A stretch of 63,621 bases of DNA, counting the filler, from Hausera hauseri (lineage: Eukaryota): the NCBI GenBank assembly GCA_046269625.1. It is 12 parts of 12 records of this genome, joined end to end, with 100 filler letters (N's around TTAATTAATTAA, not from the genome) between each part and the next. Parts side by side here need not be neighbours in the genome. Positions count along the whole stretch, not along the records: positions 4,137 to 13,389 come from JBJURY010417699.1; 11 more parts are not named here. One strand, 5' to 3'. Positions within the stretch are counted from its first letter, which is position 1, and every line of letters begins with the position of its first letter. The translations under genes and the position numbers were made by a program. The notes under the pieces were generated by a model that saw nothing but the letters and a program-made list of their open reading frames with translations, made no database searches and had not been told where the DNA came from. Positions 4,137-57,399 of the stretch are shown here, piece by piece.

Positions 4137-7100
4137 GTCGAAAAGTGGCTTTGGCACCAGGATGGTGCAACAATGGATGTTGTTGAATGCTTCTTTTTGA
4201 AGCGATTCAGAAATGATGACTTTGGGATTATTAGGTTTGGAGATGTCAAAAGCCACACCGTCGATGGTCTTGCACAATTTGAAAGATTTAAGTATGTCAG
4301 GAGGTGGCTGGTTTTGTTGAAGTTTGGACTGAGGGAAAATTGATGTAAAATCAATCGAGCTGACCAATCGGGACAAAAAGTCAGCTACAAAATTGTCGAC
4401 TCCGTTTAGGTTTTTAATTTCAAAATTAAATGCAAACAAATACGATATTTGATCCTCCCTAGGTGGAGAAGGCGATTTCATGTAAGAATTTGAAGCAATG
4501 ACTTGTGGTCCTTTTGTACTGTAAAGGTTAGTGCGGTTAACAGATGCTTAAATTGTTTTACGGCAAGGACCATTGCAACCAACTCTCTGTCAAAGGTGGA
4601 ATATCTTTGCTCTTGTACTGTGAATTTTCGAGAAAATAATTCTAATGTCTCATGGGATCCATTTTTGACTTGATGAGGACAGCACCTGCATCTGTTGTGG
4701 ATGCATCCGTGGTTAAAAAGAATTCTGCATGGCAGTGTGGATAGGCCAGGATTTCAACCGTTTTTAAACTGTCTTTGAGGTGATCGAAAGCATTGACTAG
4801 CTTGGTGGTCCATTGAATAAGCTGTTTTTTTTGCCAGAGCTTAGTGATGCAAATGGAGCGGTTAGAGTAGAGCAGTGTGGAACATACTTATGAATAAAGT
4901 GTAGGTTCCAAGGGAAGAACGCATTTCTGTTGATGTACGTGGTAGCTGTATGATTTTGAGCTGTGTGATGCGCTCTGGCTGAGGTGAATGTCCGGAGGAG
5001 CTGATAACATGTCCTAGGAAGTTAATTTTTTTTGAAAAAATTGGCATTTGAAAAAATTAATTTGCAAGTTGTTTTGGTGCAAGGGCTGAAAGATTAAACG
5101 TAAGTGCTCGGAGTGTTGTTTCGAGGAAGATGATGCAATGAGGATATCATCGATATACGAATAAGCAAAGTCTAAACCAGAGAGAATTGTATCAATATGC
5201 CTTTGGAACGTCTGGAAAGCGTTACGGAGTCAAAAGGGCATGAAAAGGTATTCGAAAAAGCCGAAAGGCGTAATTGCAGCCGTTTTCGGAATGTCTGCTG
5301 GGGCCACCGGAATTTGGTAATATGCTCTGTGTAAATAAATGCAGGAAAAGATGGTCGAACAATGGCGCATGTGAAGGATATTGTTAATTAGTGGTAGAGG
5401 GTAGACATCCATTGTTGTTATGGTGTTGAGTTGGCGGTAATCACCGCACGGGTGAAAGGTGCCATCTTTTTTCGGAACCACATGCAGTGGTGAAAACCAA
5501 GGGGATTTGGATCTTCTGATTATTTCTGATCTTTCCAGTTTGAGGAACTCAACCTCCACTGATTGTTTGCGTCGAGGCGATAGCGAGCGGATCTTTTGAC
5601 GAATTGGTTTTGGATGTGCTGTTACTATGTGATGAAAGGTGTATTGAGGTGGTACGAATGGTTTGTCCTTTTGCAACATACTCGTGCAGGAAGACGCAAT
5701 TTATTGCTGTAAGTCAGAGGGCAACGATGAAAAGTTATTAGGCGGTGTCGATGCATCGTTACTGGATGCAGTTGCGGTATAAGTTGTAGACAAGGTGTTT
5801 TGACTGGGTGGTATTTGGTGCAGGATGTTTGTGTTGAAGGCAGTGTTGGCAGCTGCAGTATCAGTAATAGGTTCCTTAATAAAAATTCCTGCATAATGAA
5901 TAATTATAAAAATAATTTAAATCGGAAGTCCTTTTTTTAGTATTGACTTGTTGGAAGCGATCGCCCGGGTAGTCACCGAAATTCTGTTAATTTGATTAAA
6001 ATTATGTCCGCTCTTTAAGGAACATCGTTTGCAGTTTACAAGTAACTTATAGTGGGACAGAAAGTCTGAACCCAATATAGGTGTGCGTACATTGGCTACA
6101 GTAAATTTCCAAGTGAATGTGTTTGGGAAATTTGGAAGAGTAAAAGTTAATTTGGTAACACAAAAAGTTTGTAAAGGTTAACCGGACGCCGTGAACAGCT
6201 GCTTTTTTGAAGTGAAATTGTTCTGGATGTGCTGTGTTGGTGGTAGCAAAATGATTGCTGCGCCGGTGTCTATTAGAAAATTAATGTTTTGCTTTGTTGA
6301 AGTGACGAATGCCGCTTCCAAAGTGAATACAGCAAAAGAGATGTGTCGGTTATCTTTTTGTAGGTTGTTGCCTTTGCTAGAACTTGCCGTGTGTCCTAGC
6401 GAAAAAGTCATACTTTTGTAGCTGGTGAGTTTGGCCTACTATTTTGTGTGGGTCTATTAGTGTTGATTTTATTGTGCGTGTTGTAGTTACAACCAGGTAG
6501 GCATTTTTTTGCTTTTGTTCCAAATTTTGCGTGATAGATGCAAACGATGATGCTTATATTAAAATCGGGGGAGTAAAATTTACAACCGATGCAGCATTTC
6601 TGAGCATTGTTACCAAATTTTTGTGGTAGTAGCTAAAAGACGACCGCACGGGCGAAAACAACCATCTTTGTCGTTGATGAAATACATTAGGGGAGGCAGC
6701 CCTAGAAAAACCTCGTCGATGCAGCGTTAATGCATTTAATTTCTCGTTTATGTTATTAATTGTCTTTTGTAAAATTTCGTTTTCTGTGTGTAATTGCGAA
6801 ATTTGTTGCTACACCATTATATTTTGTTGTTGGTTGTTTGTTGTTAATGCCGCAGAGACAGTTGGTGCTGTGTGTGAGTGTAGCACTTCATAGGCTTTGT
6901 CTGCCAATTTGGCTAACTTTTCCATTGCCGTGGAATCCTCGACCACAGTGAGCAAAGCTCTTATTTGAAGGGGAAATGCGTTTAAAAAGTGACGACGAAG
7001 AAGTTCTGGACTATGCTCAGGTGTTACGCCAATGGCACTGAGGTGAGACAAAGATGTGCGCAAGAATTCAGAATGCTTCTGAAGGTCCATGGCGTTGTCA

Positions 7101-7845
7101 TTGAAGAACCTTTGAATGATGGAGTCGATTGACGGCTCTGTGAGCTTAAGGACGGCATTATAAAGTTGAGCATATGGATCGGTGAGGTGAAAGATACCGA
7201 TGATGTTTGTAATTTGGATTTTGATAGAAGTAGGTAAATGAAAAAACAGGCTGTTGGCTTTGGATAAGGGGTCGATGACGTTTTGTGATTGGAGTCAGAA
7301 TTGATAAAGTTTCAGCCATGTTTGAGTAGAATTTTGGCTGTCAAGGTGAATTACTCCCCAATTACTAGGTGAATGAGTGGGGAGTAGGTGCTATGTCGGA
7401 GTGTTTGAAGTACCTTGTTTGGGTAGATAAGTGATGGAGATCGGTGGTTTGGTGGGTTTGTCCGTGCTATCACTAGTGGGTGATGAATCCATACCACCGC
7501 GGATGCGGAAATGTGTGTGAAGATAGATATTGGATGAAGAGAATTGCAGGGTCCCAAAGAGAGGTACCGTGGAGCCGTGGTGACTAAGACAAAAGTCAGG
7601 TGAGCGAAGAAAAGTGGATATGAAATTGTAGATAGCCGTAGTCTTTAGGTGTGTAACTGCATTTGTGCAAATATGTTTGTTATTTAGAAAAAAGAAAAGG
7701 AAATACAGAGGTCGTGCAGCCGAGAGCGTGTCGTTGGGCGGCAGCGAATGGTGCCGTTTGAGCCAAAGGTATAGGGTGGGCGGCCGGGGCTTCCGCCTCG
7801 CCGCGGCGAGTTGCAAATTTCGGGGTAGTCGTGATCTCCGCATGT
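4137..7845 (-). mobile_element. Ty3/Gypsy LTR retrotransposon (CsRn1-clade-like), decayed, copy 1: UBL-gag-PR-RT-RNaseH-IN start, cut by the contig end
   Basis: Gag helical region (ELLRRHFLNAFP...LAKLADK) and two CHCC knuckles. Protease FLIDTGA; RT SPWFSPLHVVPKKDG/CGDYRQLN/YIDDIL; RNase H TTDAS and ADFLSR; integrase HPGAKAT. Many stops and frameshifts. Confidence 0.95.
7493..7708 (-). other. Ubiquitin-like domain (72 aa) fused in frame to the N-terminus of Gag, copy 1
   Basis: LYFLFFFLNNKHICTNAVTHLKTTAIYNFISTFLRSPDFCLSHHGSTVPLFGTLQFSSSNIYLHTHFRIRGG|MDS. Length, beta-beta-alpha-beta-beta hydrophobic pattern and the LHxxxRxRGG terminus match ubiquitin LHLVLRLRGG. Confidence 0.75.
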
Positions 7846-7849
7846 AAAA

Positions 7850-9850
7850 TCTCCTCAACTGTCACTTCATGTTCACTACGCAACAAGTCCATTTTACGGA
7901 CCAATGATGAATTGTTCGCGTAATCCATTGGCGATGGGTCGGCCTCAACGATTACGGCAGTTTCAGGTTTATTACTCCATGCAATAATTTTCTCTGCCGA
8001 TAAATTAAGTCGTCTCTTGAGTTTGTGTAGCATCGGTACAGAGTGTTTGAAAACATTTGTCATCACTTTTTGATACGTTGGTTTTTATTTTGCACCCTTC
8101 GCGTTTCAGCTATATGATTTGAAAAGCAGAGTAAGGTGAAACAACGCTGTCTGCCAAGTCCTGGCAAAAGCCAACGAAATAATTGCGCAACAGCGGGTGA
8201 GGATAAGACATAAAGTATCAAAATATTTGACAAAATCAAATTAATATGAGCTTGATTTTGTATCATACGTTCAAGTTTCCCAAAGAACGTTTCAGGGAAA
8301 TGACCAACAACAGAATGTATCTTTAGTTTCGGATTGCTGTAATAATTGACAACCATTTCCAAAGCCATATCCGAATTCTTTTGTGAAACATTGTCATCAA
8401 TTGTTATAATACTCTGTAATGACATGATTGATGTTGTCGGCGATAAATGCCGCAATGAATGTGACTCATCTTCCTTTTTTACTTGATGACTGTCAGCAAT
8501 AATTGTTAGAACTTCTTCAAGTGAAGAGGAACAAGCCCGAAGTATTCGTGAGCTTACCTGGATGGATTCAAGAGACAATGTACAGTCTTCGAGTTTTTTG
8601 GATTTGCTATTTTGTCTATGTCATCCATAATGATTCCAGGATCGGATAATGATAATGAGTCGGGCACGGGGTTGGACTGAACCTTTTCCACAAGTTTGTC
8701 GTTCAATGTAACACTCGTTTCTGTTGAGGTATCGTCGTTATTTCAGGAGAAATCAAGCATATTATAGCTGACCGTATATCGAAACTTCTGTTCCTGAATA
8801 TCTTCAACGCTCGGGTACCGGAGTTTGTGAAGACAACGATCCAACTGGGAATCCGATTCCAATTTCATAGATGTTAATGTATTAGCACTGATACTTCGAG
8901 ATAGTTGTGAGTGCGGTATAAAATTAAAAGAATCCCCTGAATCAAATGATAAACTACCTACAGTTCTTACAGATCTTGGAGTACTGACTGAGTCGGAATT
9001 TCGATTCAAAGAAGGTCCAGTGACAGGTATTAAAAAGCCATTATAAATATAATGCGTAACGGCTTCACGTATTAGAGGATGAGACACTTGATTAACTTGG
9101 CGATAAGGATGCAGATAAGTGGAAAAGAGCTGCAATTATGGACATGTTCTAATGAATGTGCTATTCAATTGGTCGAACAACACTACATGACAGAAATATG
9201 GCAGTTTTTTGGAAGACTGGGCTTGAGCGCACTGAGCGCCGTTGGCAGTACCGGACAGAAACCGGATTAAAGTGCAGCGCTGTATGCAACGTCTTCATTT
9301 GTAACAGTTTACGTTAATAGGAGTAAAACGGTAACTCTGGTCTCTTTACCCAAATGACTGTCTCTATGAAGAAGCGGGATAAGAGGGTTAAGAAGAGGAA
9401 AAGGATCTCGGAAAATTGAAAAATCGATTTCACTGCAAGGATTTTGCAACAGAGGTTCATTACTGACTCGCACGCAAATCAGCTTCAGCAAATGAAAAGA
9501 GGGCGATCTTCAATTGTCGGCTTGACCTGATACTGTATTCATTAAGAAGACGGAGTAATGGTTCAAGAAACACTCTATGTCGTAACGCACTCGTGCGATG
9601 GTAGGCAATAATTGCTGCAAAGAGACGCAACTGTTGACGTTTCAATCGTTCCAAGGCATCTCCAGAATGGTGGAAACTCAAACCGTAAACCTTGTTGAAC
9701 AAATCTTCCTGAATTGAATACATAAATATTGGAGAGATATTCTCAGATGTCGATGAATTTTCCTCATTTGGTCTCAAAGTCGCCTCAAATTCCCCAGTTT
9801 TACAAATGTCCACACATTTGATTATTCCCAAAATGGTACCGGTTAAAGCT
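7850..9850 (-). pseudogene. FHIP1: FHIP1/FAM160A (FTS- and Hook-interacting protein) homolog, frameshifted, 3' end abutting the Gypsy copy
   Basis: LIPLLHRDSHLGKETR, FCPVLPTALSAL..SLP, HPLIREAVTHYIYNGFLIPVTGPSL and GHFPETFFGKLERMIQN match FAM160A motifs. Split over several frames with no obvious introns. Confidence 0.8.
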
Positions 9851-9904
9851 AACAGAGGGCCGCCGCAAGTCGTACTGAACAGGCAGCCGGTATCGACGTA
9901 CAAA

Positions 9905-10371
9905 ACATCAGTATCAATTCCAGTTACTCAACAATCATTTGACAGACTAACACCACCAAATTCACTCTAATCTATATTGTCTGCATAAATAAAAAATGTG
10001 TCTGGTTCCAGAAATAAAAATAAACTCTTCTTAACATCACCAGTAACATTTAACAATTCTGCCTGATGTTACTCTGATCGTCTCCATATAAATTTTTATA
10101 AAGGGTACCTCCGATATGGTTGATAACATTTTCCACGTTCAACACAGCCTGCAGGCCCGCTGTTTATTATTAAAACTTTTGCAAACAGGTCCAATGCTCG
10201 TTTTGATCTAGCAGCTGATATTCCTGCAATACCACCTCCAATGACCAAATAAGATTCTTCTGTTGGTAAATTAGATGCAGTTTTAATTTCAGATGCAGCA
10301 CATGTCTCTTCTGCACGTTCCTTTTCAGTACCATTCTGCAAACCAACTTCATGCTTCTGTTTGTGACTCAA
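9905..10371 (-). pseudogene. AIFM1: Apoptosis-inducing factor (FAD oxidoreductase) N-terminal fragment with in-frame stops
   Basis: YLVIGGGIAGISAARSKRALDLFAKVLII...PYRRYPL and downstream KKSLFLFLEPDTFFIYADNID*SEFGGVSL parallel AIFM1 [29 protein letters not shown]...PYMRPPL...ERSIYFQPPSFYV...ENGGVAV. Confidence 0.8.
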
Positions 10372-10749
10372 TTGTTCCTCTAGTTATATTAACTTGTTCT
10401 GAATTATTCTTCCATTTAATAAATGATTTCTTTTTATCAAAATATATCGAACAATGGAATTGAATAAATTTATTTTTATAAACTTCATAACCTTAAAATT
10501 ATACACTCAAAACTGAAATTGATGCAAAAACATTTCTAGTAAAGTGTATAGGCATTGTTTGATGAATACCAAAGTTACATGCAATTATAAAACAATAGTT
10601 TTGTAAAGACAGTCTAACATGCAGATCAGAATGTTTAAGATTCACAATGGAAAAAAATGTTACCTTCGTGAAAAAATCCTTGTCCGTGCGGCTTGAAATA
10701 AACTGGTATATTTTCTGACTCCATTTATTAATTGGCAATTCCATCGGAG

Positions 10750-11040
10750 TCGAAACGATATATTGACTCATGTCAGAACCGCCACCGACTAACACTTTAA
10801 AAGGGGCCACAAATAGGCTTGAGCCAAAAAATTCCTGCAATGCGTCATTTGGATCTCTAGAGGTGAAGACATTATTCAAGTCAAGTAATTCAAATTCATC
10901 GCTGCTGTCGTAAAAACGAGATGACCGAGCAAGATCTGCGGTCCCATTTAACCCTTCATGGCCATATCTATCATAAATTTTGTGTTTGTTATCATCTGAT
11001 AATATTTCATAAAATTGACTAATTAACTTGGACATTTTTC
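10750..11040 (-). pseudogene. DnaJ class B (DNAJB6/B2-like) fragment lacking the HPD part of the J-domain
   Basis: YEILSDDNKHKIYDRYGHEGL...FTSRDPNDALQEFFG; 5'-truncated. Confidence 0.75.
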
Positions 11041-11454
11041 GGTAACTGATAGTTGAAAAATATCGATATCCAAAATCATCCGAATAATATAACAAAAATG
11101 GCGTATAAAACATTAAAATTCAAGAGTTTGCTAAATTTTTTATTTATTAAAACAAATCATTTTTCAAGTTTGAAAGCATGTATTTACAAACAACAGCAAA
11201 AAAGAAAAAAAATCAGATAAAATCAACCTGCAACTGCAGTTATAGCCACTAAAGATAGATATTGAGACTCTGGATGAGAAACGGTTGTCAAATCACTCTC
11301 ACAAACACTAGTGGAAATTTGATTCTGAGGTGTTTCTACGACACCGAAAACGTTACCAGCACAGGATTTGTCCCGATAACTATCGTCAGACATTGTCGCG
11401 ACCCTTGAAAATCCACCAGAACTGGTAACTCAAGTCAAATCGGAAATCGCCGAC

Positions 11455-12185
11455 CGAATAAAAAAGGATGATTTAGTGCTTCATCTGGATCAATTATCAA
11501 CATTTTTTGCGGTAGGTCAAGAAATTTCTAATAATCGGCAGGAGAATAACCGGGTACATTTCATCGACGGCCGTGAGGCTCACCGGTATTAAAACCTATT
11601 ATACCACTCCATTTCCTACTAGATACCCCTTGGAATGCAATTTTTTTGTTCTTTTTACGATGAACTTTAGGTCGATAAATATATTTATTTGGCGTCGAAT
11701 TGCATGAAAATCTTTCAAAATATCTTAGTCCTTTCTTTCCTCTGTCTATCACATTGAGCGGTGGAATTTCAACAACTTCTAGAATTCTCAAAATTTGTTC
11801 ATGCTCAAACTGTTCTATAAACATAGGTTGTTCAATGTGGAGTTCAGCCCTAACGACCACGTCTATGGCATGCGAATAATCGAGATTGAGAATTATTTCC
11901 GAAGACTGATAAAATCTGGATTGAATGTAATAATATATGCGACGCTTTGTATGACATGAACTACCAAAGTCAACGACTTTTATGGCTGATCGTCGAGGAT
12001 GAAGCAGAAGAATGTTTTCAGTCTTGAGATCGCAATGTATAATTTGAACTTGAGTCTTTGCGACAAAAACCAGGGCCCGACAAATTTGTTGAGAGAACTT
12101 CCTAGTAAGGTTTAACGAAACACCGCGGAAATTTGTGTTTTTAAGCAATTCATATAAGGTATACGTTAGCAGCTCAAAGTATAAT
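11455..12185 (-). pseudogene. DYRK1A: DYRK1A/minibrain kinase fragment (C-lobe only), degenerate
   Basis: FELL..TLYELLKNTNFRGVSLNLTRKFSQQ, IIHCDLKTENILL, DFGSSC, YIQSRFY, GEPHGRR*, then YSPADY*KFLDL. N-lobe absent, MWSLGC segment deleted, stops present. Confidence 0.9.
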
Positions 12186-13489
12186 TTTCAACTGCATTCA
12201 TTTTTAGCCTGCCCAGTAGTATCTCCAGCAAATGGTTTGTAGATTCTGCTTAAATCCTCGAATCGCAAGATCGGGGGCCCGCCTATGGGCCCAACGCGGC
12301 TACAACGGACGCCCAGCCATGCTTGACCAAATAGGCCAAAGGGTACCGGCCGCTGTGGGCACCACACAGAGAAATTTATAAACAATCAGTTATGCAATTT
12401 CGAATATTCAAATGGAAATGCGCAAGCTGTTTTTCCCCAGTCAACTCTTCATTACCATCGGCAGTCCATTCATTTATTTCAGCATCCAACACTTGATAAT
12501 TCTCAGCTTCATTGTTGTATTAATCAAGCAAGAAAACAAGCCATTCCTCAGGAAGTTCAACCTCAAAGTACTGTCTGTGTGGTGCCTTCGTGCGTTGAGG
12601 CACCTTGGCCTATTTCGTCTGGACAAAATCACGCGCGTTTGCTTCGTCCCGGTTGCACCATTTTCCGTGTCTTGCTTCCTCCCTCGGATGGCTTTGATGC
12701 AGTGACATTCGGTCAGTATGGACAATTTAACGATCATTTTGTTTGGAACCACCTCAAAACGAATTAAAATTTCCCGTTATGGATTTTCAAATCATTGCAG
12801 GATTAAAATGAATTAGAATTCGTCTCCGACTCACCCTATCTAGTAATTGATGACGCTAAAATAACCACAAGATCAAATCAATCACGGAGAATGTTTCGCA
12901 ATCAAAATGATCAAAATCATCAATCTGAGGAAACAGTGAAATTCATCAGGGTCCATTTTCCCTCAGCCAATTGATGCATTTTAAAACAAGTTTTGTTTAT
13001 AAGAAGAAAATGAAAATTCTTTCTCACATTTGCTTCAACGCTTCTAGGTGTGTGGTTCGGAATTGCATTTAAAGTCAAATATGAGAATTCCTATGCTGCT
13101 AGTTGTTCATTTTTATCCGTGCTCTATCAATGATTATTCATGTTCAGTACATTCGAAGTTTTGAAAATTCATACATATCACATCAGACACCGTGTTTGAT
13201 TGACAGTTTTTGGTTTTGTTTTTTTTACATCTTACCTAGTTCGCTACTGACGACCAGTTTAATAATTATTCTTCTGAAATATATCAGAAAATTCAGTTCT
13301 TGCTAGACAAATGTCGTTCTCTCATTTCCACAGCAGTTCTCTCTTTCTCCGTGGTCCCAAATTTATTTTTTTGCAAAAATTTATAAAACNNNNNNNNNNN
13401 NNNNNNNNNNNNNNNNNNNNNNNNNNNNNNNNNTTAATTAATTAANNNNNNNNNNNNNNNNNNNNNNNNNNNNNNNNNNNNNNNNNNNN

Positions 13490-16400: not shown

Positions 16401-17491
16401 ATCCTGAAAATATCCATATATTGGACCTAGATTCCACTGGAGATACGGCCTACATACTGGAGGTAGATATGGAATATTCGGCTTCTATACGCGCAAGGCA
16501 TTAACAGCTGCCTTTCCTCCCTTAGAGCGGGTCTCCGCCCCATGGAAAGCAGAGAAAGCTGCTCTGTCATCTGGATAATAGGGAGAAGTATGTAGTCCAC
16601 TACATCAATCTCCAGCATGCAGATAGACATGGACTTCGTATTACCAATATCCATGGGGCCCTGGAGTTCAGCCAGTCCATGTGGCTGCAGTCATACATAG
16701 ATCTCAATACGAAGCTGCGGACAAATGTTAAGAACGACTTTGAGAAAGACCAGTTTAAACTATATAACAACAGCGTTTTTGACAAGACCATGGAGAATAT
16801 CCGCAACAGGATCAACATCGAGCTGGTATGTGACTGGAAGCGAGCAAAGAAGATCATTGCCAAGCTTAACTTCCACAGCAGCACAATATATACGGAGAAC
16901 TTGGTAGGCATCCATATGCTAAAAACAGCATTGGTATTCAACAAGCAATATTGTATCTATCAAAGACCCTAATGTATAGATTCTATTACGATATAGTGGT
17001 CCCCAAGTTCAAGTCCATGCAGCTGATGTATATGTAAACCGATAGTTTCATCTATCAGATCCATACAGAGGACATTTATAAGGACTTTGCCGAATTGGTC
17101 CAACATATAGATACCTCGGATAATCCGAGGGAACATCCGAACTATTCAATGCCAACAAAGTCCTAGGGAAATTCAAAGACGAAGTGAATGGAGCAATCAC
17201 CTCGAGAAATGTGGCTCTCAGATCTAAAATGTATGCCCTAGATGCATGTAGTCAGATCAGAAAGAGAGCCAATGGCGTTCAAAGAGCGAACTTAGGCAAG
17301 ATCACTTTTGTGGATTATGAGACTTCTGCATGAGCAGACTCACATCATCGGAAATGAGAAGGATCCAATCTAAGGACCATAACATCCAAACAGTAACTCT
17401 GCATAAGAAAAGCCTACATTGGATAGATGAAAAGAGGCGGATCCTGAGTATTTGAATCCATACACTACCTCACGGACTTGTGGCACTGTAA
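13490..17491 (+). mobile_element. Polinton/Maverick-type protein-primed family B DNA polymerase pseudogene, copy 1, with a Cys/His-rich N-terminal region
   Basis: GSSYIQL..WIVNKKACINVLNDDNKC, HYVWIKN, DHCHFTGKYGGAACNNCNL, FHNLSGYD (ExoII), KGVFPYDY, YLKTDV (ExoIII), YMDVNNLYG (motif A), KLYNNSVFDKT (motif B), YM*TDS (motif C), LGKFKDE. Many stops and frameshifts. Confidence 0.9.
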
Positions 17492-29893: not shown

Positions 29894-30441
29894 GCTAAGC
29901 CAGGTTTTGCTAGAATTTTCGCGATCGATAAAATATTTGGTGCACTGAGAAGAAGTGTGTTTGGCTGGCGGGATGGAAGATGTATAACTGGTGAAAGTAG
30001 ATGGCGTGGTTACGGTCGTTGATTTTTTGTGAAAAGTAAAAGATGATGGTTTAGAGGTAGTCTTGTAAGTAGTGTCAATGGTGGGCAAAGAATCCATGCC
30101 ACCACGAATGCGAATGTGTACATGAGTAATGACATAACGGGATGAAGGAACAAAAAGGTGACGAAAATCGACGTTAATTACAGGTAGGTGAAAATCGGAA
30201 ATATTACAGAAACGTAGTACATAATGGTGTAAGAAATGTGCGTCAATAGAATACGTTGTATTGAGTGTGAGTAATTGACGATTATTGACGAGGAATAAAA
30301 TGGAAGGCGTCGGTGTAGATCCTAATGGCTGACGTGGTGATGGAACGGACCATGGCGTGGGACCTACTGACATAGGACAGACGGTCGGATAGTGTTCACA
30401 CTGTGACGTACCTGAAAATCCGGGATAACCAAATCCCCTCC
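29894..30441 (-). mobile_element. 5' part of the same Gypsy family, copy 2: PBS-like site, UBL domain (30098-30304), S/T-rich linker and Gag start
   Basis: SILFLVNNRQLLTLN...ISDFHL...YVITHVHIRIRGG|MDSLPT..., then IDRENSSKTWL, homologous to copy-1 Gag LDSQNSTQTWL. TGGTTATCCCGGA at 30419-30431 resembles the tRNA-Trp PBS TGGTGACCCCGA. Confidence 0.8.
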
Positions 30442-32479
30442 AAAAACTCTCGGTTGAAGAAATAACTTTAGGGGTGATGAAAGTATTATGGAATTATGTG
30501 GACAAATATGTGAATTTTCAAAGTATAGGGACTTTATGCGACAACCACTTCTGGGAGCTCTGTTAAGAAGGGGCGGTGTTGTGTCAACGGTGGTAATATA
30601 ATGAACGAAAACATGTGATAAACAAGACATAGGAATCGTTAAAAAAAGCAAAATAAAAAAATTGTTGCCAGACGAATAGTATACTATGACAAATCTCACC
30701 CCATCGTGCACTGGTTTCTCCACGGTTGGCAGTATCGTTTTGCATTGTGTGCACAGCAAATCGACTTTCTCACGTCGTGTCGTCCTACGAGCGACCTGCG
30801 TACTCAACGGCTCTTTAAACAAACCCACCAGTTTGTTATATGTTGTCTGGTTTTCATCGAATCTTGTCTGCTTGGCACCTTTGACAGACGTCTGTAATCG
30901 ATCTTTTTACTTACTCCACTCTGCAGTCTAAAACGGATAACCTCACTGGTCAACGGCAGTTTTTGTTGTTGTTGCAGCTGCTGTTTCATCTGCGATGGTC
31001 TCAGAGGCCCTTTATTACAGACTTTGATGTCGATTAAACGATTGGATGATTCCGCATGGTGACTTAGTCGATTCTTAAACAATGGGCACCTATAAGATGG
31101 ATCGGACTCCATATAGCCCATCGAAACCTTAAGATTTTCAGTAGAAAAGCTGGACAATATAAGCAGTACTGTGGAATAGTTCATTGAACAGCCGAATGAA
31201 ACATCGGACATTATTTTACACTTTTTACCATTTATTTTATGCTGTTTTCAAAATTTTGCAATACTATCACATGTTTCCTTTTATCTATAGGTATTGATCT
31301 GTAGTAGTAACCGAGAATGTCTCGGAAAAATCTGTTGGAGTTTATCAGTAATCGCTTCTCGCCAATTCGAGTTAGAGCATTTTGTACTTTATTATATAGT
31401 ATAAATGTTGCCGATTTAACAGGGCCCACATGTAAATGATCGAGGAACTGAACTACATGAATGCGGTATGTTGACGCCGGATTTTCATTAGGAAATGTTT
31501 TAGTGTTGAACAATATGTAAATTTCTGACGTTTTTGACAACCTGAGAAAATGTTTTGATAGAACAAGATAAAGTACTTGGGCATGTCGAACACCGTCTCA
31601 CTCGACCTTCAACGCATGTTCCATTGGCAAACAGTAAAATGACGTATCCATCAAAATTAAATTGTTTGTCTGGATGATTCCACAACATTCGTATCGAATG
31701 ATGATTGGTAATAACATTGATATTGGTAACACATCGACTAACTGTCTTTAATGAAGAACAGTGAGGAACGATACAAAAATCTCATAGATGTTTTCTGTAA
31801 CACCACGGATAATTAAAGCGTTCGTAAAGCATACATTTTCCGATGGGGTGTTTAACCTTGAGTTCTGATCCAGATTACTATTAAGGGATATATATCTTTT
31901 GATAGTTGTTCAGCGTATACCGATGTCATTTGAATAGAAACAATCATATGGCAATGGTAATCTGAAAATAGAATGTTGTACGAATTGACGAAATATGTGT
32001 AACCATCAACAGTCCAGACCTCCGCAGAAGGAGCGTACCATGTAATATCCGACCCGCCCAACATGATACGATATTGCTCGTCATTACTATTAAGTTCGTA
32101 CTCATTTAAATTGGCACGATGCAATGTCTGACAGATTTTCTGACGTAACGTGTGACATCTTATTGATTTTGGGAGAAAAATAACTTTATTTTCAGGACGT
32201 TTTGAGTTGTGTTTAAAAACAAAATCGGGTCTTTCGCGATATTTGGCGACTTTTTTGTGTCAAGTTATTTCCAATACATTTGTATCGACAGCTTTCACCA
32301 AGAACTCGAATGATTTATATTTTCTTGTATGTGAAATAACGGCGCGATCCAGTTTCAATGCCAAGAATATTCGACCAATTATTTAACGGATATATATCAA
32401 CCATATATATTGAATAGGCTTTGAAAGTGATGATCGGAAATACAAAGACATATTATTCGTAGTTAGAATACTGGCAATT

Positions 32480-34260
32480 TTATTTCCAGACTCATTATTG
32501 GTTGAACTTATCGACTCATTATTCAACTCTTTCATTTCTTCAAACTTCTTATCGAATTTTTCTTGACAGTTACAAATAGGCATAGTTGTTGCAACACAGT
32601 AGTGAACCATTCGTTTCGACTGATTAACAAATATAGGATTGTATCCTGAACTGATCCTCTGTCTATTACTAAAGGGAGGATCAGTTCCAAGTATAGGTTG
32701 TATTAAAGTAGATTCAATATTATTACTCGTACTATCCACGGAGGATATTCCACGCTTTGATGCGGAAATTAGAAGTTTTCCTATCATCTGGTTTGGTCTA
32801 GAACCAAACAAAGGAGACGTCTAAATATGATCCGGGCTACAACAACGATCAGTAACTTCGTTACTACTACTACTTGCTGTTTGTTTCACCGAATATTGTG
32901 GGGATATGAGCTTTTCGTGTTTCGAACTTATGATATCAACATTTTGATAAGGAGATCGTTTGAATTTATTTGCATTACATGTTTTATTATGAGAAACATT
33001 CACTTTATATTTTCTTTTTCTAGCTCTCTTACGTGAAGAAAGCCGTTCTTCTTTAGGGTCAAATTTGCTGGACTCTGTTGATGAAAGATCCATTTTTATT
33101 CTTTCACTATGTGAAGTATATCCAGCAGATGAAAGTTTAGAGAGTTTCACAGAAGGCTTTCAATTTCTAATCAAGGATTTTGTTGAAACTCAGGGAGATC
33201 TTAAAACTGATGATTTTGCAGAAAAATTATAACAGAGAGATTTCATATTTACAGAAGATGAGGAATTATCTGAATCATCATCACTTTCTTCCGATGAATC
33301 TGATTCTGATTCTGAGCGCATATTAATTTTTTACTTGATCTCCCTGATGTGCTCTTGTAACTTGAGACTGATTTATCTGCGCTGATGTTATTTATGCGTC
33401 GTTTCGGTAATGGTCCACCGTTCCTTGACGATGTCCGCTTTTTACCTTTGGAAATTATAATTGATTTTGTGAATTTTCTTGATGGTATTTTAACATTGAT
33501 TATTTCTGGTGGAAGAATTGGTTTCCGGCTTCTTTCTGAAGTTGATGACCTCCTGCTTGAAAGACTATTCAATAAAGAATAATTACTTCCATTGGCTAAG
33601 TTGTGATCAGTTATTGAAATACCACTAGCACAACGTTCAGCGAGATAAATCTCATCCGTATATTCTTCTTCAGTTGGTGGTAAATCACTTTCCCCTGAGG
33701 AATGAGTACAACAGCCTTGTTCAAGTTTTTCTTTCAACTTTTTGACTTCATTCCATGATCGATCGAGTCCAATTCCAGGTTTTATATCAATTTCTTCCGG
33801 CCTCAGATGAAAGGATTTAATGTCATGCTTTTTATAAACGATCTATTGTGATTCCATCCGAAAAATCTAACCTCATATCCGTCATTTCTATCCAATAGTA
33901 ATTTCGCGGGCCAAAAATATAAACTTCCAACTTGTCGAGCCCATGTCAATTTGTGAGATGGTTGACATGGTTTGGTAACCCATTCCGCCATTTTCGCTTT
34001 TGTATTTATGTAACAATCAGCACACAATTCAACTTCGCAAATTTCATCTTTAACTTCTCGGAGCAAAACACGAGCTGGGTCAGCTTTATCACTATAAATT
34101 CCATGTAAAATATATACGTCATGAACAATAATGTCTGCATCTTCAACAAAATCATTTAGATAAACATATCGACCATCCTTTATTTTACGTTGAATTAATT
34201 CCAAATCACAATATCTATACACGAGATATTCGTTTTTAACGATTTCTCCTCGAAATACAA
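32480..34260 (-). pseudogene. ZMYND11: ZMYND11/BS69-like chromatin reader (bromo-zinc-PWWP) fragment, frameshifted, no MYND finger seen
   Basis: DLELIQRKIKDGRY..F..D...IVH, ELCADCY, WVTKPCQPSHKLTWAR, YFWPAKLL, YEVRFFG..HNRS, then a low-complexity S/K-rich region and CNCQEKF across several frames. Confidence 0.8.
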
Positions 34261-34369
34261 TGGTTAACANNNNNNNNNNNNNNNNNNNNNNNNNNNNNNN
34301 NNNNNNNNNNNNNTTAATTAATTAANNNNNNNNNNNNNNNNNNNNNNNNNNNNNNNNNNNNNNNNNNNN

Positions 34370-50761: not shown

Positions 50762-53310
50762 AGGCCGAAAGGCATGAAGATGTATTCGTAAAGGCCAAAT
50801 GGTGTGATGACAGCAGTTTTTGGAATGTCATCAGGCGCTACAGGAATTTGATGGCAGGCCTTATGCAGATCAATGGTAAAATAGATATTGATGTTATTGA
50901 GGCTATGAAGAATATTCTTAATGAGTGGTAGTGGATAGGCATCTGTAATAGTTAGGTTGTTTAATTGCCGATAGTCGCCACATGGCCTATAGGTACCATT
51001 TTTCTTTACTACTACATGAAGAGGAGAAGCCCTAGGTGAATTAGATCTCCGAATGATGCCACACCTTTCCAGTTCATGAAATTCCTGTTCCATAGCTTTA
51101 CGTCTGCGTGGCGATAAAGGTCTGACCTTTTGTTTGATAGGCCTCTGATGCTCCGTTACTATATGGTGATAAGTTGTGGATGGAGGTTTAAAGTTGACGT
51201 CCCTTTTAACTATGCGAAAGCAAGACGTTGTGACGTATGATTTAAGATCGAAGTCTAGAGATAAGAATGATTGAGGCGTATCATTAGAAAGAACAGCTCC
51301 AGTGATTGACGAAAAGCAACTGGCATTGATACTGTCGACGCCTAATTTGAATTTTTGTTTTAGAATAGATTTATGATTGTCGTTCATAACTGAAATACAA
51401 GCGACTTTATCGGAAGTTTTTTTATAGATGGTGAAGCGTTCAACATGTTCACAGATGCGTGCAATGAGCTGCTCGCTAGATTGTCTACGAGACACATGTT
51501 TGGAGTTGATATCGAGTTCCTGCTTAAAAGACAGCCATATTTGCAATTGACCAATAGATCATGTGTTGAAAGGAAATCTAAGCCTATTATGGGAAATTTA
51601 ATGTTGGCCACGTGGAACTTCCAGACAAATTTATCTGGCAGGTTGGCGAATGTAAAAGTCAATTCCGTGGTTCCTGCAACGTGCAACGGTTGACCACTGT
51701 CAGTGAGAAGCGGTGGACAGGAAGTTATAATGGATGTAGGAGTGAAGGACAAGGGGAAAAGCAAAAAGGCAGCTCCTGAGTCTATAAGAAAGTCGATATG
51801 TGAAGTATCTCTGCATAACAGTGCAGCTTTCAACAAAAAGACTGCAGAGACGGTGTTGAAACGGCCATAAAATTGAGCGATATTGCCTGCGCCAGAATGT
51901 GCCGTAAAATCTGGAGGCATTATTAATTTTTTGAAGGTTTTGGAGAAAAGGAAGAAGAGGAAGAAGAGTGATGAGATTTATCGTTTTAATGTTTACAGCC
52001 AGGCACGCATGATCTAGCTTGTGACTGGAACTTATTGTGGTAGACACAAATAGGATTGTCCACAGCGTACCATTCGCTGTAGAACCGACAACTCAAAAGC
52101 ATTTTCTTGTATCCCTTCGAAATCGCGTGTGATAGAAGCATGTCATACGTCCGCCAGGTGAAATGGATCGAGTAGAATGTCTTGACATGCTTCGCTCCTT
52201 TGAAGGTCTGGTTTCACTTCGTCGAGACCCATTAAGATTATTTAGTTTGGTAGTAATGGCCAAAATCGACTGCTGTAACTTATCAAACTGTTGCTGCATC
52301 ATTTGCCATTGTTGATTGAAAAATATTGTCTGTAGTTGAAGTACATATGGTGGCAGCCGCAATTGGGAGAGAACTGTTGATGTGGAGAATCTCAAGGGAT
52401 TTGTCAGCCATTATTGCCAGTTTTTCGATACAGTGGGTTCGTCTACAACGTTTAGTAAGGCTTTGATTGAGATGGGCAACGATGACAAGAAATAACGGCG
52501 AATTAGATCCGCATTATTTTTAGGCGTCACTCCTGGAGCGGTAAGTTGCAGAATGGCCGTTTGGAGAAAATCGAATTGTTTTCGGTTTCTTATTGCGTGG
52601 TCGTTAAAACACTTTTGTATTATATTGTCAATCGAAGTATCCGTGACATGAAGTACAGCTTCACAGAGTGTCTCGTAAGGTGTCGAGGATTGGAGCAGCT
52701 CAGAGATGTTACTAATCTGCTGCTTGACGTTGGCAGGCAGAAGAATTAAAAGACTATTGGCTCGCACAAAAGAATCAGTGATGTTGTTCGATTTTAGCCA
52801 CTGTTAATGAAATTGGAGCTATGGTTTGCTGGAGTTGTTTTTTTGACAAGGAAAAATTGCACACGAGGCAAATTTAACGAAACCAGTGATTGTTGGGAGT
52901 GTGGCAAACGGTGGAAGTTGCCGGTATTCGTGGATTTATCATACAAACAGGATTGATTTAGATCCGATCCATCCTGAAGGCGAAAACGGAGCATAAGATG
53001 GATAATTAGACGTTCACGGCAGACGAAAGACAGGAGTGAGTCGACAGGATGTAAAGTGATACCCCTATATGTGAAATAGAAGTTGGAAATGTTGAATGAG
53101 GAGGATATAGAGGTGCATAGTATCTGCGCTGTGGCGTAGATTGGAGCTTTAATGGTTGCAATGTGTTGATTATTACTGATGACAAGGAAAGAGAGTTGCA
53201 GCGAAGTAATCACAGGAGAATGGTGAAATGCATGGGAAGCTTGTGCGGTTTCCTTCTGTGTTAATAAGAGGTACGGGTGCGCATCCGGGGTGGCGGTGGC
53301 AAGTCATGAT
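50762..53310 (-). mobile_element. Same Gypsy family, copy 3: UBL (52968-53195)-gag (two CHCC)-(-1 frameshift)-PR-RT
   Basis: UBL ends LIIHLMLRFRLQDG. Gag RANSLLILLP...LIRRYFLSSLP. Knuckles CFYHTRFRRDTRKC and CVYHNKFQSQARSCVPGC. A AAA AAT TAA at 51923-51932; FLIDSGA; SPLHVVVKKNG, CGDYRQLN. Confidence 0.95.
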
Positions 53311-53444
53311 TTGGATAAAGGAATATTCAAAGATATTGAGCTTAGAAACCCTTTGAAATGAAAATTAGTGTTTGCTATGAAAGATTTGTATGAGCGCAGA
53401 AAAAAGTCGCACTGGTTGGCGCAAATAAGTGAAAAAAATCTCAT

Positions 53445-54790
53445 CTACCTGTATCTGAACGTTGTTTTACTGAACGCAGTGACAGCATCTTCATTGTGAC
53501 CAAACATTGACGGTGTGATTGTAACATGGAATGATTGCACTGAACAGTTTTCGCCGGGATCGAATGCTGCTGAATTGAAATGGGCACCGTGTGAACTGAT
53601 GTCTTTGTGGTAAGAGGATATTAGTATCTGCTCTTTGAGGAGCCGTTCCTTGAGTTCGAAAATTTTCCGGATCGCTATGGTCACTTTTGCCTGTCACATT
53701 TTGAGACCTGATTTGAGAAGTAAAATCTGACGAACAAGTAACATTGTTCATATAGAGCGTTCGAGCAATGTGTTCAACTGGTACAGTTTTAAATTTGTTT
53801 ATATACTGATTAGTCCAGTTCACAATGAACCCAATTATTGGTGCCGTACTGTCAGTTATGCAACGAGATTTCCAGCTGATACAAACACTATTTGCCATCG
53901 TTCGAATATCACTAATGCTTAGTGCTCGTGGCAAACCATTTTTTATACTTAGATAATAAGATTGTATCCGATGAAATCGTACATTGCACTGCACACATAT
54001 GAGAACGTGGGGAATTGTTCGGCGGACTTAATTGATAGCGAATTGTTTTTAAGAACATCCAATTTTGAATGGTCACTATTCGAAATGTCTAAGAAATCTT
54101 TTCTCCACGTTGGCTTTTGAGCATAACCAGGGACAAATTCACACGGATGAATAATGGAATCGCCTTCTTTAACAGTTAAAATGGATCCAAATGATAGCAT
54201 ACCATGGAAATCGTCAATCTGTGTAGAGTCTTTGTGTCCGCCATCATACGTATTTCTTTCATTGGTTTGAGTACTGTGTAACCAAGAAACACTGATACAT
54301 GTGTTGTTAATTCTGACAGCCTTAACTTGTTCTGGTTCTTCTAGTTTAGCCACTGCAATGGTACAAACTGAACTTTTCGCCGGTGGACCCAGACCTTTCC
54401 TGTTCAAGGCCATAACTCGTATTGGATAACTAGTTGACTCTCTAAAATCATCCAGCGTTACAGTCGTTCTACTTTGAACGTCAAAAACTGGCGTAGGTCT
54501 TTTACACGTAACATTTGTACTATTTCGTCTCGAATTACGAGCAATAATAACCGATTCTTTTATCATATTCGTTTTCTTTGCATTCTCAAAAATAGCAGCT
54601 TCGACCTTTTTTGTATCGCTTTTGTTTGAATGGAAGGAAATGAAACTACTGAATAACCAATTACTCAGAATCCGTATCACATTCACAAAATTATCCTCAA
54701 GAGATCGTGTACCATCAAGTGACGAAATGATCACAGTTTGAACTGTGTAAATAAAATTGTCTGGTGAACCTTTTCCGATGATGAGAATTG
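53445..54790 (-). pseudogene. FN3/Ig-domain cell-surface protein fragments, frameshifted
   Basis: FN3-like LDDFRESTSYPIRVMALNRKGLGP, CISVSW and VCISWKS...PIIGFIVNW. Ig-like EGDSIIHPC...PTWRKD...LSIKS...YVCSA. Confidence 0.65.
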
Positions 54791-57399
54791 ACTCTATCCG
54801 ATTCCAGATATTGTAAAATTAACTCAATTGTCGAATAATAGATTTGTCTGATTTCGTTTAAAACTGCTTTAAGACCTCACAAAACTAAATCAATAACATG
54901 AATCAGTCTGATAAATGGAACTAAAGACGAATTGGTTATTATCGGTACGTAGTTGCGCATGATTGACTGTATGAGACAAAGAAGAACGAAAGAATCGCTG
55001 ATATATTCAGACGATGGCTTCGTTGTATAACTGACTTGGTGGTATAATTCCCGTCAACATTGACGATAATTGAACCCATGGCACATGACCGGATTCTAAC
55101 ACCGCTTGTAAAGTTAGTAAAATCGAACCACAATCCAGTATGCCGAGTAAACGAGAATAATCGGTCATCATAATTGGCACAGTAGTTCTGGCCAATTCAG
55201 AATAGGTTTCGGAATTCCAGGTAATATTACGTAGAAATGTTTGTATTAATATCAAAATGGTTTCTCGAGCAGTTACCAAATACAATGAGGGCGATTTCTG
55301 AAATTCTTAGCTTTGGCAAAATTTTTGTTTAATTCGAATAAGACTTGGTGACATAAGATTCATTCGATCAAAAAGTGTAGGACAAATTTTGATACGTTGA
55401 GTAATATACGCATTTTTAAGCAGCAATGATGATCGAATAATAATTTCTAAAATTGTTCTTACAATACTTAAAACCTGAGAATCTAGCAGACCTGTTGCAT
55501 CATTTAATATTCTATCGATGATTTTAAACCATGCTTCNNNNNNNNNNNNNNNNNNNNNNNNNNNNNNNNNNNNNNNNNNNNTTAATTAATTAANNNNNNN
55601 NNNNNNNNNNNNNNNNNNNNNNNNNNNNNNNNNNNNNGGAGCTTTCGAAAGACAAATATGCCCGAATGAAATTGGACTCGAACTAAAATATCAGCAGAAG
55701 CTTTAAAAAAACCTTTGCGGGAAAATAATCAATCAACTCAATCAAGTACTTTATCGTTCAACATTTCAAACACTCCAGAAACCCCATGTGAAATTATTCT
55801 TTCATAGATTATCCAGTCAGTGAAAAAACTCATTCGCCTTTCGTAGATATTAGTTTGCCAAAACTCGAAAAGAAACTATCATTTTGAACATATTGAATTT
55901 TGGAACAAAAAATTGATTCTTTGACATTGCTAAAAATTCTACCGATTGATATTCTCAGCATTTACAGAATTTTTTTTGATCTCATTGAACCATTTCAATC
56001 CCAAGATTTTCGGTACAGCTTTTAGTCGGTTCAATCATCTTATTTTGTTTATCAATCCGACCTAGCAGCGATTCAGTTTCTAGTAATCTAGTAATTTACA
56101 ACTTTTAAATTCAGTGCGTGCAATTTAACCTTCGTGTGATCTACTTATAATTTGGGACATTTTATTGTGTATATTGATCCCATGTTTCTGCACTACGATA
56201 TCAAACTCAATTTCTTTTGTACATCTGAATCAATTCTTTCCGGACAAAATTTTCAGTCATATCGTGATGCACTAAATTTGCCGTTGCGTTCTTCAATCAC
56301 GGATTCATTTGCTGTCAGTGAAACTATATGTAGTTTATGATAAAATAATTAAAAAAAATTTTGTTTTGTTTAAATATTCAAAAAAAGTTTGAATTGAAAA
56401 TACAAGTGATTTCGTTCCAGCCATTTTGGATTTAAATTTTGTTTTCTTTCACGTTGGAATTTTCTTTATATCATCGTTTTGGAATTTATTTATTTTTTGG
56501 AATTGATTTCATATATATTCGTACATTCGTCGGCCAGTTAAACTATACTGTTTATTGACATTGTAAAATTCCTCGTACACTGTCCTTCACACTACCTCAC
56601 ATGTAGGGCATATATAATACTGAACCCTGTTGAACATATGTCCAAAGTATTTCATCATAATACTATGGAAAATTTCCGGCTCATGAATTGGAGCCAAGCA
56701 CTCTGTGTAAACTTTGCACATCTAATCAAAGCAATTATTTAATGAACACAAATAAGAAAACTAACCATTCGGCGAAGTGAATTTGGAAATAATGAAAAAT
56801 ATAGCTATGTCAACGTGCACTGTCTAATTTTGATAATTTATGCAGTAAAACAAAACACATGTACGGAAATAATCTTGATGCAGTAAAACAAAACACACGT
56901 AAGGAAATAATTTTAATGGTGGGGTAAACTAGGCACTGCATATTGTCGCCATTATGTTATATTGTCAACATAATGTACATTTGGTTTAAAGCATCAAGTG
57001 CATAAACTTGTCACGTAATTATGCCATCGTATTGCTTATCAACATCCTGCGTTTATTTTAATGCATCAAATGATTTAAATATGTGACAGCGCCATATTCG
57101 AATAGGTTTTCATATATGACGAATCGATTAAATCCACCAGATTCTTCGAATAATGCATGCTTGACTGAATAATCGAGTTAGAATCGATAATTCTTCGCGT
57201 TCGAATAATGTTTTCGATCATCTAATATCATATTCACATTCCGCATATATGCTTTCCTACCCAGCCCCGATATTACATTTATCGATTTCAAATTCACATT
57301 TTGCTTAATTCGAAATATTGATTTTATGCCTATATAGTACATTTTCATGGAATAATTTTTATGCACAAAGAAGTTTTCATATACGAGGGATCGATTCCC

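What the first reader, a model, noticed from the sequence alone, without database searches (positions are those of the whole stretch)
7850..12200. Train of four unrelated, truncated host-gene fragments running head-to-tail into the UBL-Gypsy element
Seen: DYRK1A (C-lobe only), a DNAJB6-like piece (no HPD), AIFM1 (N-terminal piece) and FHIP1 are all on the minus strand. All are decayed, show no evident introns and are closely packed; AIFM1 runs almost directly into FHIP1. FHIP1 ends ~140 bp before the UBL with no LTR between them. Established: LTR elements can capture mRNAs by template switching, and Helitrons and Pack-MULEs assemble chimeric fragment trains. Inference: this family, or a larger carrier element, serially transduces host transcripts. 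That would also explain how the UBL was acquired.
Basis: partly seen in the sequence, partly recalled or inferred. Interest (0 to 1): 0.72.

Follow-up and report, generated by a model that had tools for sequence, protein, structure and literature searches.

The report
Gypsy family hauling host gene trains
Broken pieces of four unrelated host genes sit head-to-tail directly in front of a jumping gene in a flatworm-like animal, and two distantly related copies of that jumping gene in the same window also have different broken host genes in front of them, so the family likely picks up host RNAs again and again while copying itself.

Summary
One 9.25-kb contig (window 4137-13389) carries decayed, truncated pieces of DYRK1A, DNAJB6, AIFM1 and FHIP, all on the strand of a CsRn1-like Gypsy element whose Gag is preceded in frame by a predicted ubiquitin-like domain. 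Public contigs match the two DYRK stop codons without a difference, so they are not sequencing errors. New here: the window holds two more UBL-gag 5' ends (A and C Gag 43% identical), and both also have broken same-strand host genes upstream (ZMYND11; a titin-like fn3/Ig piece). That is 3 of 3 elements and 6 of 6 identified pieces. Three corrections. The '140 bp gap' is element leader. The UBL is an old, fixed part of the element, not fresh cargo. 'No introns' is weak evidence: the host has a 3.2-kb uninterrupted PRP16 ORF, and the FHIP piece keeps one probable 68-nt intron. No LTR, PBS, TSD or parental locus could be seen. Most likely mechanism (about 0.55): serial RT template switching onto co-packaged host RNAs at the element's 5' end. 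DNA-level capture is the main rival (0.22). The mechanism is known; its family-wide, position-fixed, multi-gene form with a UBL-Gag fusion was not found in my searches.

The parts
11223..12184 (-). DYRK1A piece: kinase hinge to C-terminal stop; two in-frame stops (11563, 11530), deletions, damaged catalytic-loop and activation-segment residues
   Evidence: identical X1 contigs over 11056-11932 (table 8)
11045..11222 (-). AT-rich spacer, likely the DYRK1A 3' UTR (AATAAA at 11148 and 11144), no poly(A) tail
   Evidence: the UTR reading is an inference
10820..11035 (-). DNAJB6-like piece: J-domain helix III-IV and G/F region, no HPD; its frame stays open to 10502 without further recognised homology
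10317..10625 (.). Bin holding an unresolved very high-depth repeat between DNAJ and AIFM1
   Evidence: table 2 (18,320 against 75-100 in the train)
9907..10386 (-). AIFM1 N-terminal FAD-binding piece with four stops; tool-confirmed 10332-10153, the rest by eye against the recalled human sequence
9766..9906 (-). Unassigned linker; one X1 contig skips 101 nt of it (9762-9862)
   Evidence: table 5
8165..9765 (-). FHIP (FAM160) piece, collinear with human FHIP1B from about residue 90 to the C-terminal domain, many stops and frameshifts; coding-like continuation to about 7850 not confirmed
8490..8557 (-). Probable retained 68-nt intron (strong donor, branch-like motif, acceptor) exactly where the FHIP frame has to change
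   Evidence: 4% of 300 shuffles give such a site anywhere in the train; pattern chosen after seeing the site
7709..7850 (-). GC-rich leader of the Gypsy element; the cargo abuts it; no LTR and no clear PBS
7493..7708 (-). Predicted ubiquitin-like domain ending in RIRGG, followed in frame by Met and Gag
   Evidence: the fold was modelled on copy C with A and B as alignment rows, low confidence
4137..7492 (-). Decayed CsRn1-like gag (two CHCC knuckles, the first broken) and pol (PR, RT, RH, start of IN), cut by the contig end; high-copy family
12171..12479 (.). Bin holding a short GC-rich high-depth repeat just 5' of DYRK1A; identity unknown
   Evidence: no Rfam match or unusual fold
29894..34269 (-). 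Second case (B): broken ZMYND11 bromo-ZnF-PWWP piece, 3.1 kb of unidentified stop-ridden sequence, leader with a PBS-like 11-mer at 30431, UBL-RIRGG-Met-Gag start
50762..55537 (-). Third case (C): unidentified coding-like stretch, broken titin-like fn3/Ig/fn3 piece ending about 460 nt before the UBL, then UBL (no diglycine), gag, PR, RT

Best explanation
Decayed pieces of four host genes lie head-to-tail on the same strand directly 5' of a CsRn1-like Gypsy element with a predicted ubiquitin-like domain fused to Gag, and they were likely added one after another when the element's reverse transcriptase jumped onto host RNAs packaged with it. Inferred steps: minus-strand synthesis reaches the leader at the 5' end of the element RNA and switches onto a host RNA (here FHIP, partly spliced). 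It copies that RNA towards its 5' end and jumps again (AIFM1, DNAJB6, then DYRK1A entered through its 3' UTR), which gives truncated sense-strand pieces stacked upstream of gag. The chimera integrated, was probably copied several more times as one unit, and decayed as a passenger. Whether a 5' LTR lies beyond the contig end or was replaced by the cargo is open. The UBL is likely an early passenger that became fixed in frame; in copies A and B its diglycine end followed by Met would let a host deubiquitinase release Gag (untested).
For: Shown: identities, order, strand and decay. Three of 3 UBL-gag 5' ends in the window have broken host genes upstream, different in each, although the Gag of A and C is only 43% identical. 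Of 61 gag-strand ORFs around them 6 hit host Pfam families at E<=0.001; of 60 opposite-strand ORFs none do (best 0.006). Cargo abuts the leader with a sharp switch in strand skew in all three. Pieces are truncated inside domains, with no poly(A) run of 9 or more, as described for LTR-mediated retrocopies (PMC5131818, section 5 read). FHIP residues 92-343 take 248 codons for 251 human residues, leaving no room for an intron; the ORF of a relative (P0241) stops inside this stretch in a way that fits an intron there (its DNA was not seen). In run X1, 3 to 7 distinct contigs differ from the window at single positions in FHIP, the linker and DYRK, summed depth is flat (74-99) over AIFM1+FHIP against 6-12 for identical contigs, and one contig carries a 101-nt shorter form of the AIFM1-FHIP linker (the tool warns that summed depth is no copy number).
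Against: One probable retained 68-nt intron in FHIP. The host has long uninterrupted ORFs (PRP16 1057 aa, ZnF 493 aa), so lack of introns is not diagnostic. No LTR, no TSD, and a PBS-like 11-mer only in 1 of 3 leaders (B, 1.7% of shuffles). No parental locus, so intron loss and microhomology are untested. In B the confirmed host piece ends 3.5 kb from the UBL with unidentified sequence between. Three trains are few: random orientation per train has p 0.125, and draft assembly favours elements that are joined to low-copy flanks. No listed X1 contig bridges a gene-to-gene junction (16 of about 12,200 pieces shown).
Confidence: 0.55

Rival explanations
1. The pieces were captured at the DNA level, either copied into the element's 5' region by repair or fork switching, or assembled by a larger Helitron or Pack-TIR carrier that also swallowed the Gypsy. 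An intron-poor host makes them look processed.
For: Probable retained intron in FHIP; uninterrupted PRP16 ORF; high-depth short repeats between pieces; Pack-TIRs capture exonic DNA in animals (PMC8277862, passages).
Against: No Helitron-type 3' end on either strand of the three contigs, no long TIR in 7300-13389, no Rep/helicase or transposase hit among the 121 ORFs. It does not explain why three divergent Gypsy copies all have cargo at the same end on the same strand. Loose donor-like sites in the train are at chance level (2 against 2.2).
Confidence: 0.22
2. Chance piles in a repeat graveyard: pseudogenes or segmental duplicates of a gene-dense block accumulated, and Gypsy copies inserted beside them and later lost their 5' LTR.
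For: Repeat-rich fragmented genome; several diverged counterparts of each piece; Gypsy elements are enriched at planarian synteny breakpoints (PMC11410931, passages).
Against: Four unrelated genes cut mid-domain 140-430 nt apart; 6 of 6 identified pieces are sense to gag; no LTR remnant in any of three; host ORFs recognised in the other contigs are open frames, not debris (a less sensitive control: ORFs of 70 aa or more, 90 of 108 submitted).
Confidence: 0.13
3. The contig is a misassembly of several loci.
For: Short-contig draft; high-copy repeats between some pieces; no listed X1 piece spans the contig or a gene-to-gene junction.
Against: Junctions such as DYRK-UTR-DNAJ and FHIP-leader share no repeat; the pieces are independently decayed; the same layout recurs in two other contigs; all 30 bins have X1 cover.
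Confidence: 0.06
4. These are the functional genes, and the breaks are sequencing errors, tiny introns or a variant genetic code.
For: One frame change in FHIP can be read as an intron.
Against: Both DYRK stops (TGA and TAG) lie in an X1 contig with 0 differences (11295-11695); the kinase lacks its N-lobe and has excess changes at invariant sites; PRP16 reads 1057 aa in the standard code.
Confidence: 0.01

Closest known systems
LTR-mediated retrocopies in metazoans (Tan et al. 2016, PMC5131818; abstract, passages and section 5 read)
   Same: Partial, doubly truncated host sequences joined to an LTR element, no poly(A), chimeras of two or more genes, further multiplication as a unit, and a preferred switch site in one Gypsy family (BLASTOPIA).
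   Different: There the retrocopy replaces part of the internal ORFs between LTR-element flanks, and the Drosophila chimeras join two parents. Here gag-pol is left in place, four genes are stacked 5' of it, and the pattern recurs in divergent subfamilies. Flanking LTRs and microsimilarity were not shown here.
CsRn1 clade Gypsy elements (CsRn1, PwRn1, AgCR; PMC2582038, passages read)
   Same: CX2HX9CX3C Gag knuckle, PR-RT-RH-IN order, flatworm host.
   Different: Two knuckles in tandem, an N-terminal UBL in frame with Gag, kilobases of host cargo 5' of the ORF; the tRNA-Trp PBS is not clearly present.
Burro giant Gypsy elements of planarians (PMC6431247, passages read)
   Same: Flatworm Gypsy elements with host-derived domains, among them a Ubi2/SUMO-like domain.
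   Different: Burro has an N-terminal CCHC Gag, with the host domains kept open inside a polyprotein of about 4,900 aa that has Env homology. Here Gag is CHCC, the UBL precedes Gag, and the cargo is decayed and differs between copies.
Maize Bs1 and yeast Ty1 retrosequences (PMC5131818 and PMC7175516, passages)
   Same: An LTR element reverse-transcribes cellular RNAs; Bs1 carries pieces of three genes.
   Different: Bs1 is one element with one cargo set; here each subfamily has its own cargo at the same position.
Pack-MULE/Pack-TIR and Helitron fragment trains (PMC8277862, passages; Helitron features recalled)
   Same: Multi-gene trains of decayed host pieces; introns may be kept.
   Different: No TIR, Helitron end or transposase found; the carrier next to the cargo is an LTR-type gag-pol in 3 of 3 cases.
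Cellular ubiquitin inserts in cytopathic pestiviruses (recalled, no call)
   Same: A captured ubiquitin-like unit ending in diglycine placed before a protein could serve as a host-cleaved processing signal.
   Different: RNA virus recombination, not a retrotransposon; cleavage here is untested and copy C lacks the diglycine.

Membership tests
CsRn1-clade Gypsy | CHCC (CX2HX9CX3C) Gag knuckle | tested here: met
   6542 (A), 52048 (C), 34371 and 34467 (a fourth copy); definition from PMC2582038
CsRn1-clade Gypsy | Pol order PR-RT-RH-IN, no env | tested here: inconclusive
   PR, RT, RH in that order; IN cut by the contig end, so env cannot be seen
CsRn1-clade Gypsy | tRNA-Trp PBS | tested here: inconclusive
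   2-mismatch site in leader B only (1.7% of 2000 shuffles); 4 mismatches in A and C
CsRn1-clade Gypsy | RT phylogeny with named CsRn1 members | not tested
   no named element sequences were available from the tools
LTR-mediated retrocopy (Tan et al. 2016) | Partial copies, no poly(A) tail | tested here: met
LTR-mediated retrocopy (Tan et al. 2016) | LTR-element sequence on both sides, both LTRs present | tested here: inconclusive
   element on the 3' side in 3 of 3; no LTR found 5' within the contigs; contigs end
LTR-mediated retrocopy (Tan et al. 2016) | Loss of parental introns | tested here: inconclusive
   collinear with proteins; hint of one lost intron from P0241; one probable kept intron; no parental DNA
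LTR-mediated retrocopy (Tan et al. 2016) | Microsimilarity at the junctions | not testable with these tools
   no genome held; no close parental locus in metagenome contigs
Burro elements | N-terminal CCHC Gag with host domains inside one giant open polyprotein | tested here: not met
   CHCC Gag, cargo 5' of gag and full of stops; definition
Helitron | 3' hairpin plus CTRR end, Rep/helicase (features recalled) | tested here: not met
   0 sites on both strands of contigs A, B, C; no Pfam hit; the ends could lie outside the contigs
Pack-MULE/Pack-TIR | TIRs and TSD around the cargo | tested here: inconclusive
   only chance-level inverted repeats in 7300-13389; outer flanks not held
Ubiquitin-like (beta-grasp) domain | Beta-grasp fold; C-terminal diglycine | tested here: inconclusive
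   no Pfam or PDB sequence hit. Three-row model, pLDDT 50: strand order fits, and nearly all of the listed Foldseek rows are ubiquitin, ISG15, SUMO or NEDD8 (best E 0.003, TM about 0.6). The single-sequence model gave nothing significant. Atlas leads 0.86-0.87. Diglycine in 2 of 3 copies

The most novel reading that the evidence does not exclude
A flatworm CsRn1-like Gypsy clade has a built-in capture site at its 5' leader. Each lineage strings together its own multi-gene train of host RNAs there and spreads it as part of an oversized element, and one such passenger, a ubiquitin-like domain, was domesticated by the element as a host-cleaved leader that releases Gag.
Probability: 0.35. Interest if true: 0.75.

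Novelty: new variant of a known kind. Interest (0 to 1): 0.58.

Why it matters
LTR-mediated capture is usually seen as rare single events. A family in which most 5' ends carry different multi-gene cargo would be a natural, high-count record of what is packaged into retrotransposon particles and where RT switches template. It would be a route to exon shuffling and pseudogene multiplication in flatworm genomes, and a visible intermediate on the way to cargo-laden giants such as Burro. A UBL-diglycine-Gag fusion would be a testable case of an element using host deubiquitinases for Gag maturation. In practice such trains also create false gene models and apparent paralogues.

Tried and rejected
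No whole genome is held, so parental genes could not be located. No RNA holder was listed among the 2 runs; this says nothing about expression. X2 holds a share of 0.05 and was not used as evidence. A finer read map of the FHIP, AIFM1 and leader junctions was not obtained, so junction bridging, loose ends at parental introns and the usual 5' neighbour of the UBL stay open. The AIFM1 homolog search scored none of 338 candidates. The FHIP search gave 2 hits: one real (P0241), one repetitive and spurious. Gag scans found no relative in metagenome or viral contigs (0 of 372 and 0 of 263 stretches). The DYRK scan gave 10 distant loci, none parental. Rfam, tRNA and folding tests on the GC-rich spacers were blank. 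No shared LTR-like sequence was found among leaders, spacers and the 3' end of the fourth Gypsy copy. The stretch upstream of the titin-like piece could not be named, nor 32500-30700 in B. Contig 40475-45488 has only an RT scrap and contig 34370-40374 starts inside gag, so neither can be counted for or against. Donor-like sites at the ends of DNAJ, DYRK and the titin piece were considered as retained intron stubs and set aside as chance-level. Five look-ups in earlier findings returned nothing. The wide structural search was busy and was not run. The careful PRP16 tree did not finish; the quick tree was used.
Full report
Setting. The window is not continuous DNA. It is a string of short contigs joined by eleven 100-nt spacers; the finding lies in contig 4137-13389 (A). 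No genome is held. The host is a long-branch flatworm: the window's PRP16 groups with one unnamed protein (P0001, 69% identical), and the smallest larger well-supported set holding it is the ten flatworm-side rows of a quick, midpoint-rooted tree. 'Planarian-like' is my inference only.

The observation. All four pieces are real and lie on the minus strand. DYRK1A: E 2e-58, 70% identical to its closest relative P0121 over 253 columns, plus a match to that protein's C-terminal tail. It begins at the hinge and ends at a stop at 11223, with AATAAA at 11148/11144. DNAJB6-like: E 1e-7, from helix III on. AIFM1: E 3e-5. FHIP. The pieces are dead. The DYRK frame has stops at 11563 and 11530, and 27 of 116 near-invariant columns are changed against 12 in P0121 (p 0.013), while PRP16 shows no such excess (59 against 50 of 394, p 0.41). 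An X1 contig matches 11295-11695 with no difference, so the stops are not errors; X1 may be the source sample.

The element. Downstream lies a decayed gag-pol with a CX2HX9CX3C knuckle, the mark of the CsRn1 clade (PMC2582038, passages), cut in the integrase by the contig end. Its summed X1 depth is 5,000-22,000, against 6-12 for single identical contigs. In frame before Gag is a domain of about 72 aa ending RIRGG-M. Sequence searches do not name it, and a single-sequence model was uninformative. A model built with all three copies (pLDDT 50) has the beta-grasp strand order and retrieves almost only ubiquitin, ISG15, SUMO and NEDD8 (best E 0.003, TM about 0.6). Atlas leads agree at 0.86-0.87. 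I treat it as a likely UBL. It has the element's C-rich skew (-0.41 to -0.47) where the cargo has -0.09 to +0.28, so it is a long-resident part of the element.

The pattern repeats. The window has two more UBL-gag 5' ends. In B (29894-34269) a ZMYND11 bromo-ZnF-PWWP piece (E 3e-29), broken by a frameshift, is followed by 3.1 kb of unidentified stop-ridden sequence, then leader and UBL. In C (50762-55537) a broken titin-like fn3/Ig/fn3 piece ends about 460 nt before the UBL. Gag of A and C is 43% identical, so these are old subfamilies with different cargo. Around the three elements, 6 of 61 gag-strand ORFs and 0 of 60 opposite-strand ORFs hit host Pfam families at E<=0.001. In seven other contigs (90 of 108 ORFs of 70 aa or more submitted; the PRP16 ORF, nine ORFs antisense to it and eight minus-strand ORFs of the PolB contig were left out) the clear host genes are open frames (C-lectin, zinc finger), plus one weak zinc-finger hit in a transposon-like contig. 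Caveats: three trains only (p 0.125 for orientation per train), a less sensitive control, and assembly bias towards elements joined to low-copy flanks.

Copy number. In X1, 3-7 distinct contigs carry another letter at single positions in FHIP, the AIFM1-FHIP linker and DYRK. Summed depth is flat at 74-99 over AIFM1+FHIP, 177-212 over DNAJ, 41-103 over DYRK, and falls to 17 at the contig's far end. One contig skips 101 nt of the linker. This fits several copies of the train or of its modules, but summed depth is not a copy number, parental alleles are included, and only 16 of about 12,200 pieces were listed, none bridging a gene-to-gene junction.

RNA or DNA? For RNA: sense orientation, mid-domain truncation without poly(A), a fixed position at the element's leader, FHIP collinear with human residues 92-343 (248 codons for 251 residues), and a relative's ORF (P0241, from a 1.3-kb contig) that stops inside this stretch as if it ran into an intron (DNA not seen). 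Against: the host has a 3.2-kb uninterrupted PRP16 ORF, so intron absence says little. FHIP also holds a 68-nt segment (8557-8490) with a strong donor, a branch-like motif and an acceptor, at the place where the frame must change and of the length class that fits the change. Such a site appears anywhere in 4% of 300 shuffles and in none of six control regions under the strict pattern; the pattern was chosen after seeing the site, and a looser one is at chance level. A partly spliced RNA would explain both sets of facts; so would DNA-level copying from an intron-poor gene. No LTR was found between cargo and ORF or shared among the leaders. A PBS-like 11-mer occurs in leader B only (1.7% of shuffles, 1 of 3 tested). 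No Helitron end, long TIR or transposase was found in the three contigs.

Mechanism. Shown: anatomy, decay, recurrence in three copies, old UBL. Inferred: RT finishing the minus strand at the leader switches onto co-packaged host RNAs, repeatedly, building a sense train 5' of gag that later multiplies and decays (0.55). Rivals: DNA-level capture (0.22), chance piles or segmental duplication (0.13), misassembly (0.06), functional genes (0.01).

Comparison. Template-switch capture by LTR elements, including chimeras of two or more genes, re-amplification and a preferred switch site, is established (PMC5131818: abstract, passages, section 5). There the retrocopy replaces part of the internal ORFs, whereas here gag-pol stays and cargo stacks upstream. 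Burro elements carry host domains, a Ubi/SUMO-like one among them, but inside a CCHC-Gag polyprotein (PMC6431247, passages), so this is not a Burro. Pack-TIRs (PMC8277862, passages) and Ty1 retrosequences (PMC7175516, passages) are looser analogues. Ten full-text searches (mostly listings and abstract starts seen) turned up no report of a UBL-Gag CsRn1 element or of such trains in flatworms. The library lacks most subscription papers, and I did not open supplements or repeat libraries, where the family may be described.

Verdict. A real feature and a new variant of a known process. The family-wide recurrence makes it more than a curiosity, but the RNA route is not proven. Interest 0.58.

Noticed in passing
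window 45935-49108 (+): Uninterrupted 1057-aa PRP16/DHX38 ORF: either an intron-poor host or an intact retrogene.
   Followed up: partly
window 13490-17566 and 58429-62507: Two copies (78% identical over 4.1 kb) of a decayed element with PolB2 and endonuclease VII hits, Polinton/Maverick-like by recall.
   Followed up: no
window 17667-21626: A whole 3.96-kb contig of a degenerate (CGTT)n microsatellite, about 990 units.
   Followed up: no
window 6650-6490 (-), 34371-34520 (+), 52150-51990 (-): Gag of this family has two CHCC-type knuckles in tandem rather than one.
   Followed up: partly
window 34370-39600 (+): Fourth decayed copy of the Gypsy family, with an unrelated 1.7-kb insert in RT; C-rich skew ends at about 39600 without a recognisable LTR.
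   Followed up: partly
window 12325-12339 and 12605-12619: 15-nt inverted pair 265 nt apart at the high-depth GC-rich repeat 5' of DYRK1A; possibly a MITE. Its X2/X1 depth ratio (about 0.007) resembles the Gypsy family's, unlike the 10317-10625 repeat (about 0.03).
   Followed up: partly
window 2844-3437 (-), 22423-23901 (-), 25836-26861 (+): Open C-type lectin ORF, open C2H2 zinc-finger ORF, and hAT/DDE-like debris (DUF4371, DDE_1).
   Followed up: no
window 32500-30700 (-) and 55537-54820 (-): Coding-like, stop-ridden stretches in trains B and C that no tool named; likely further cargo.
   Followed up: partly
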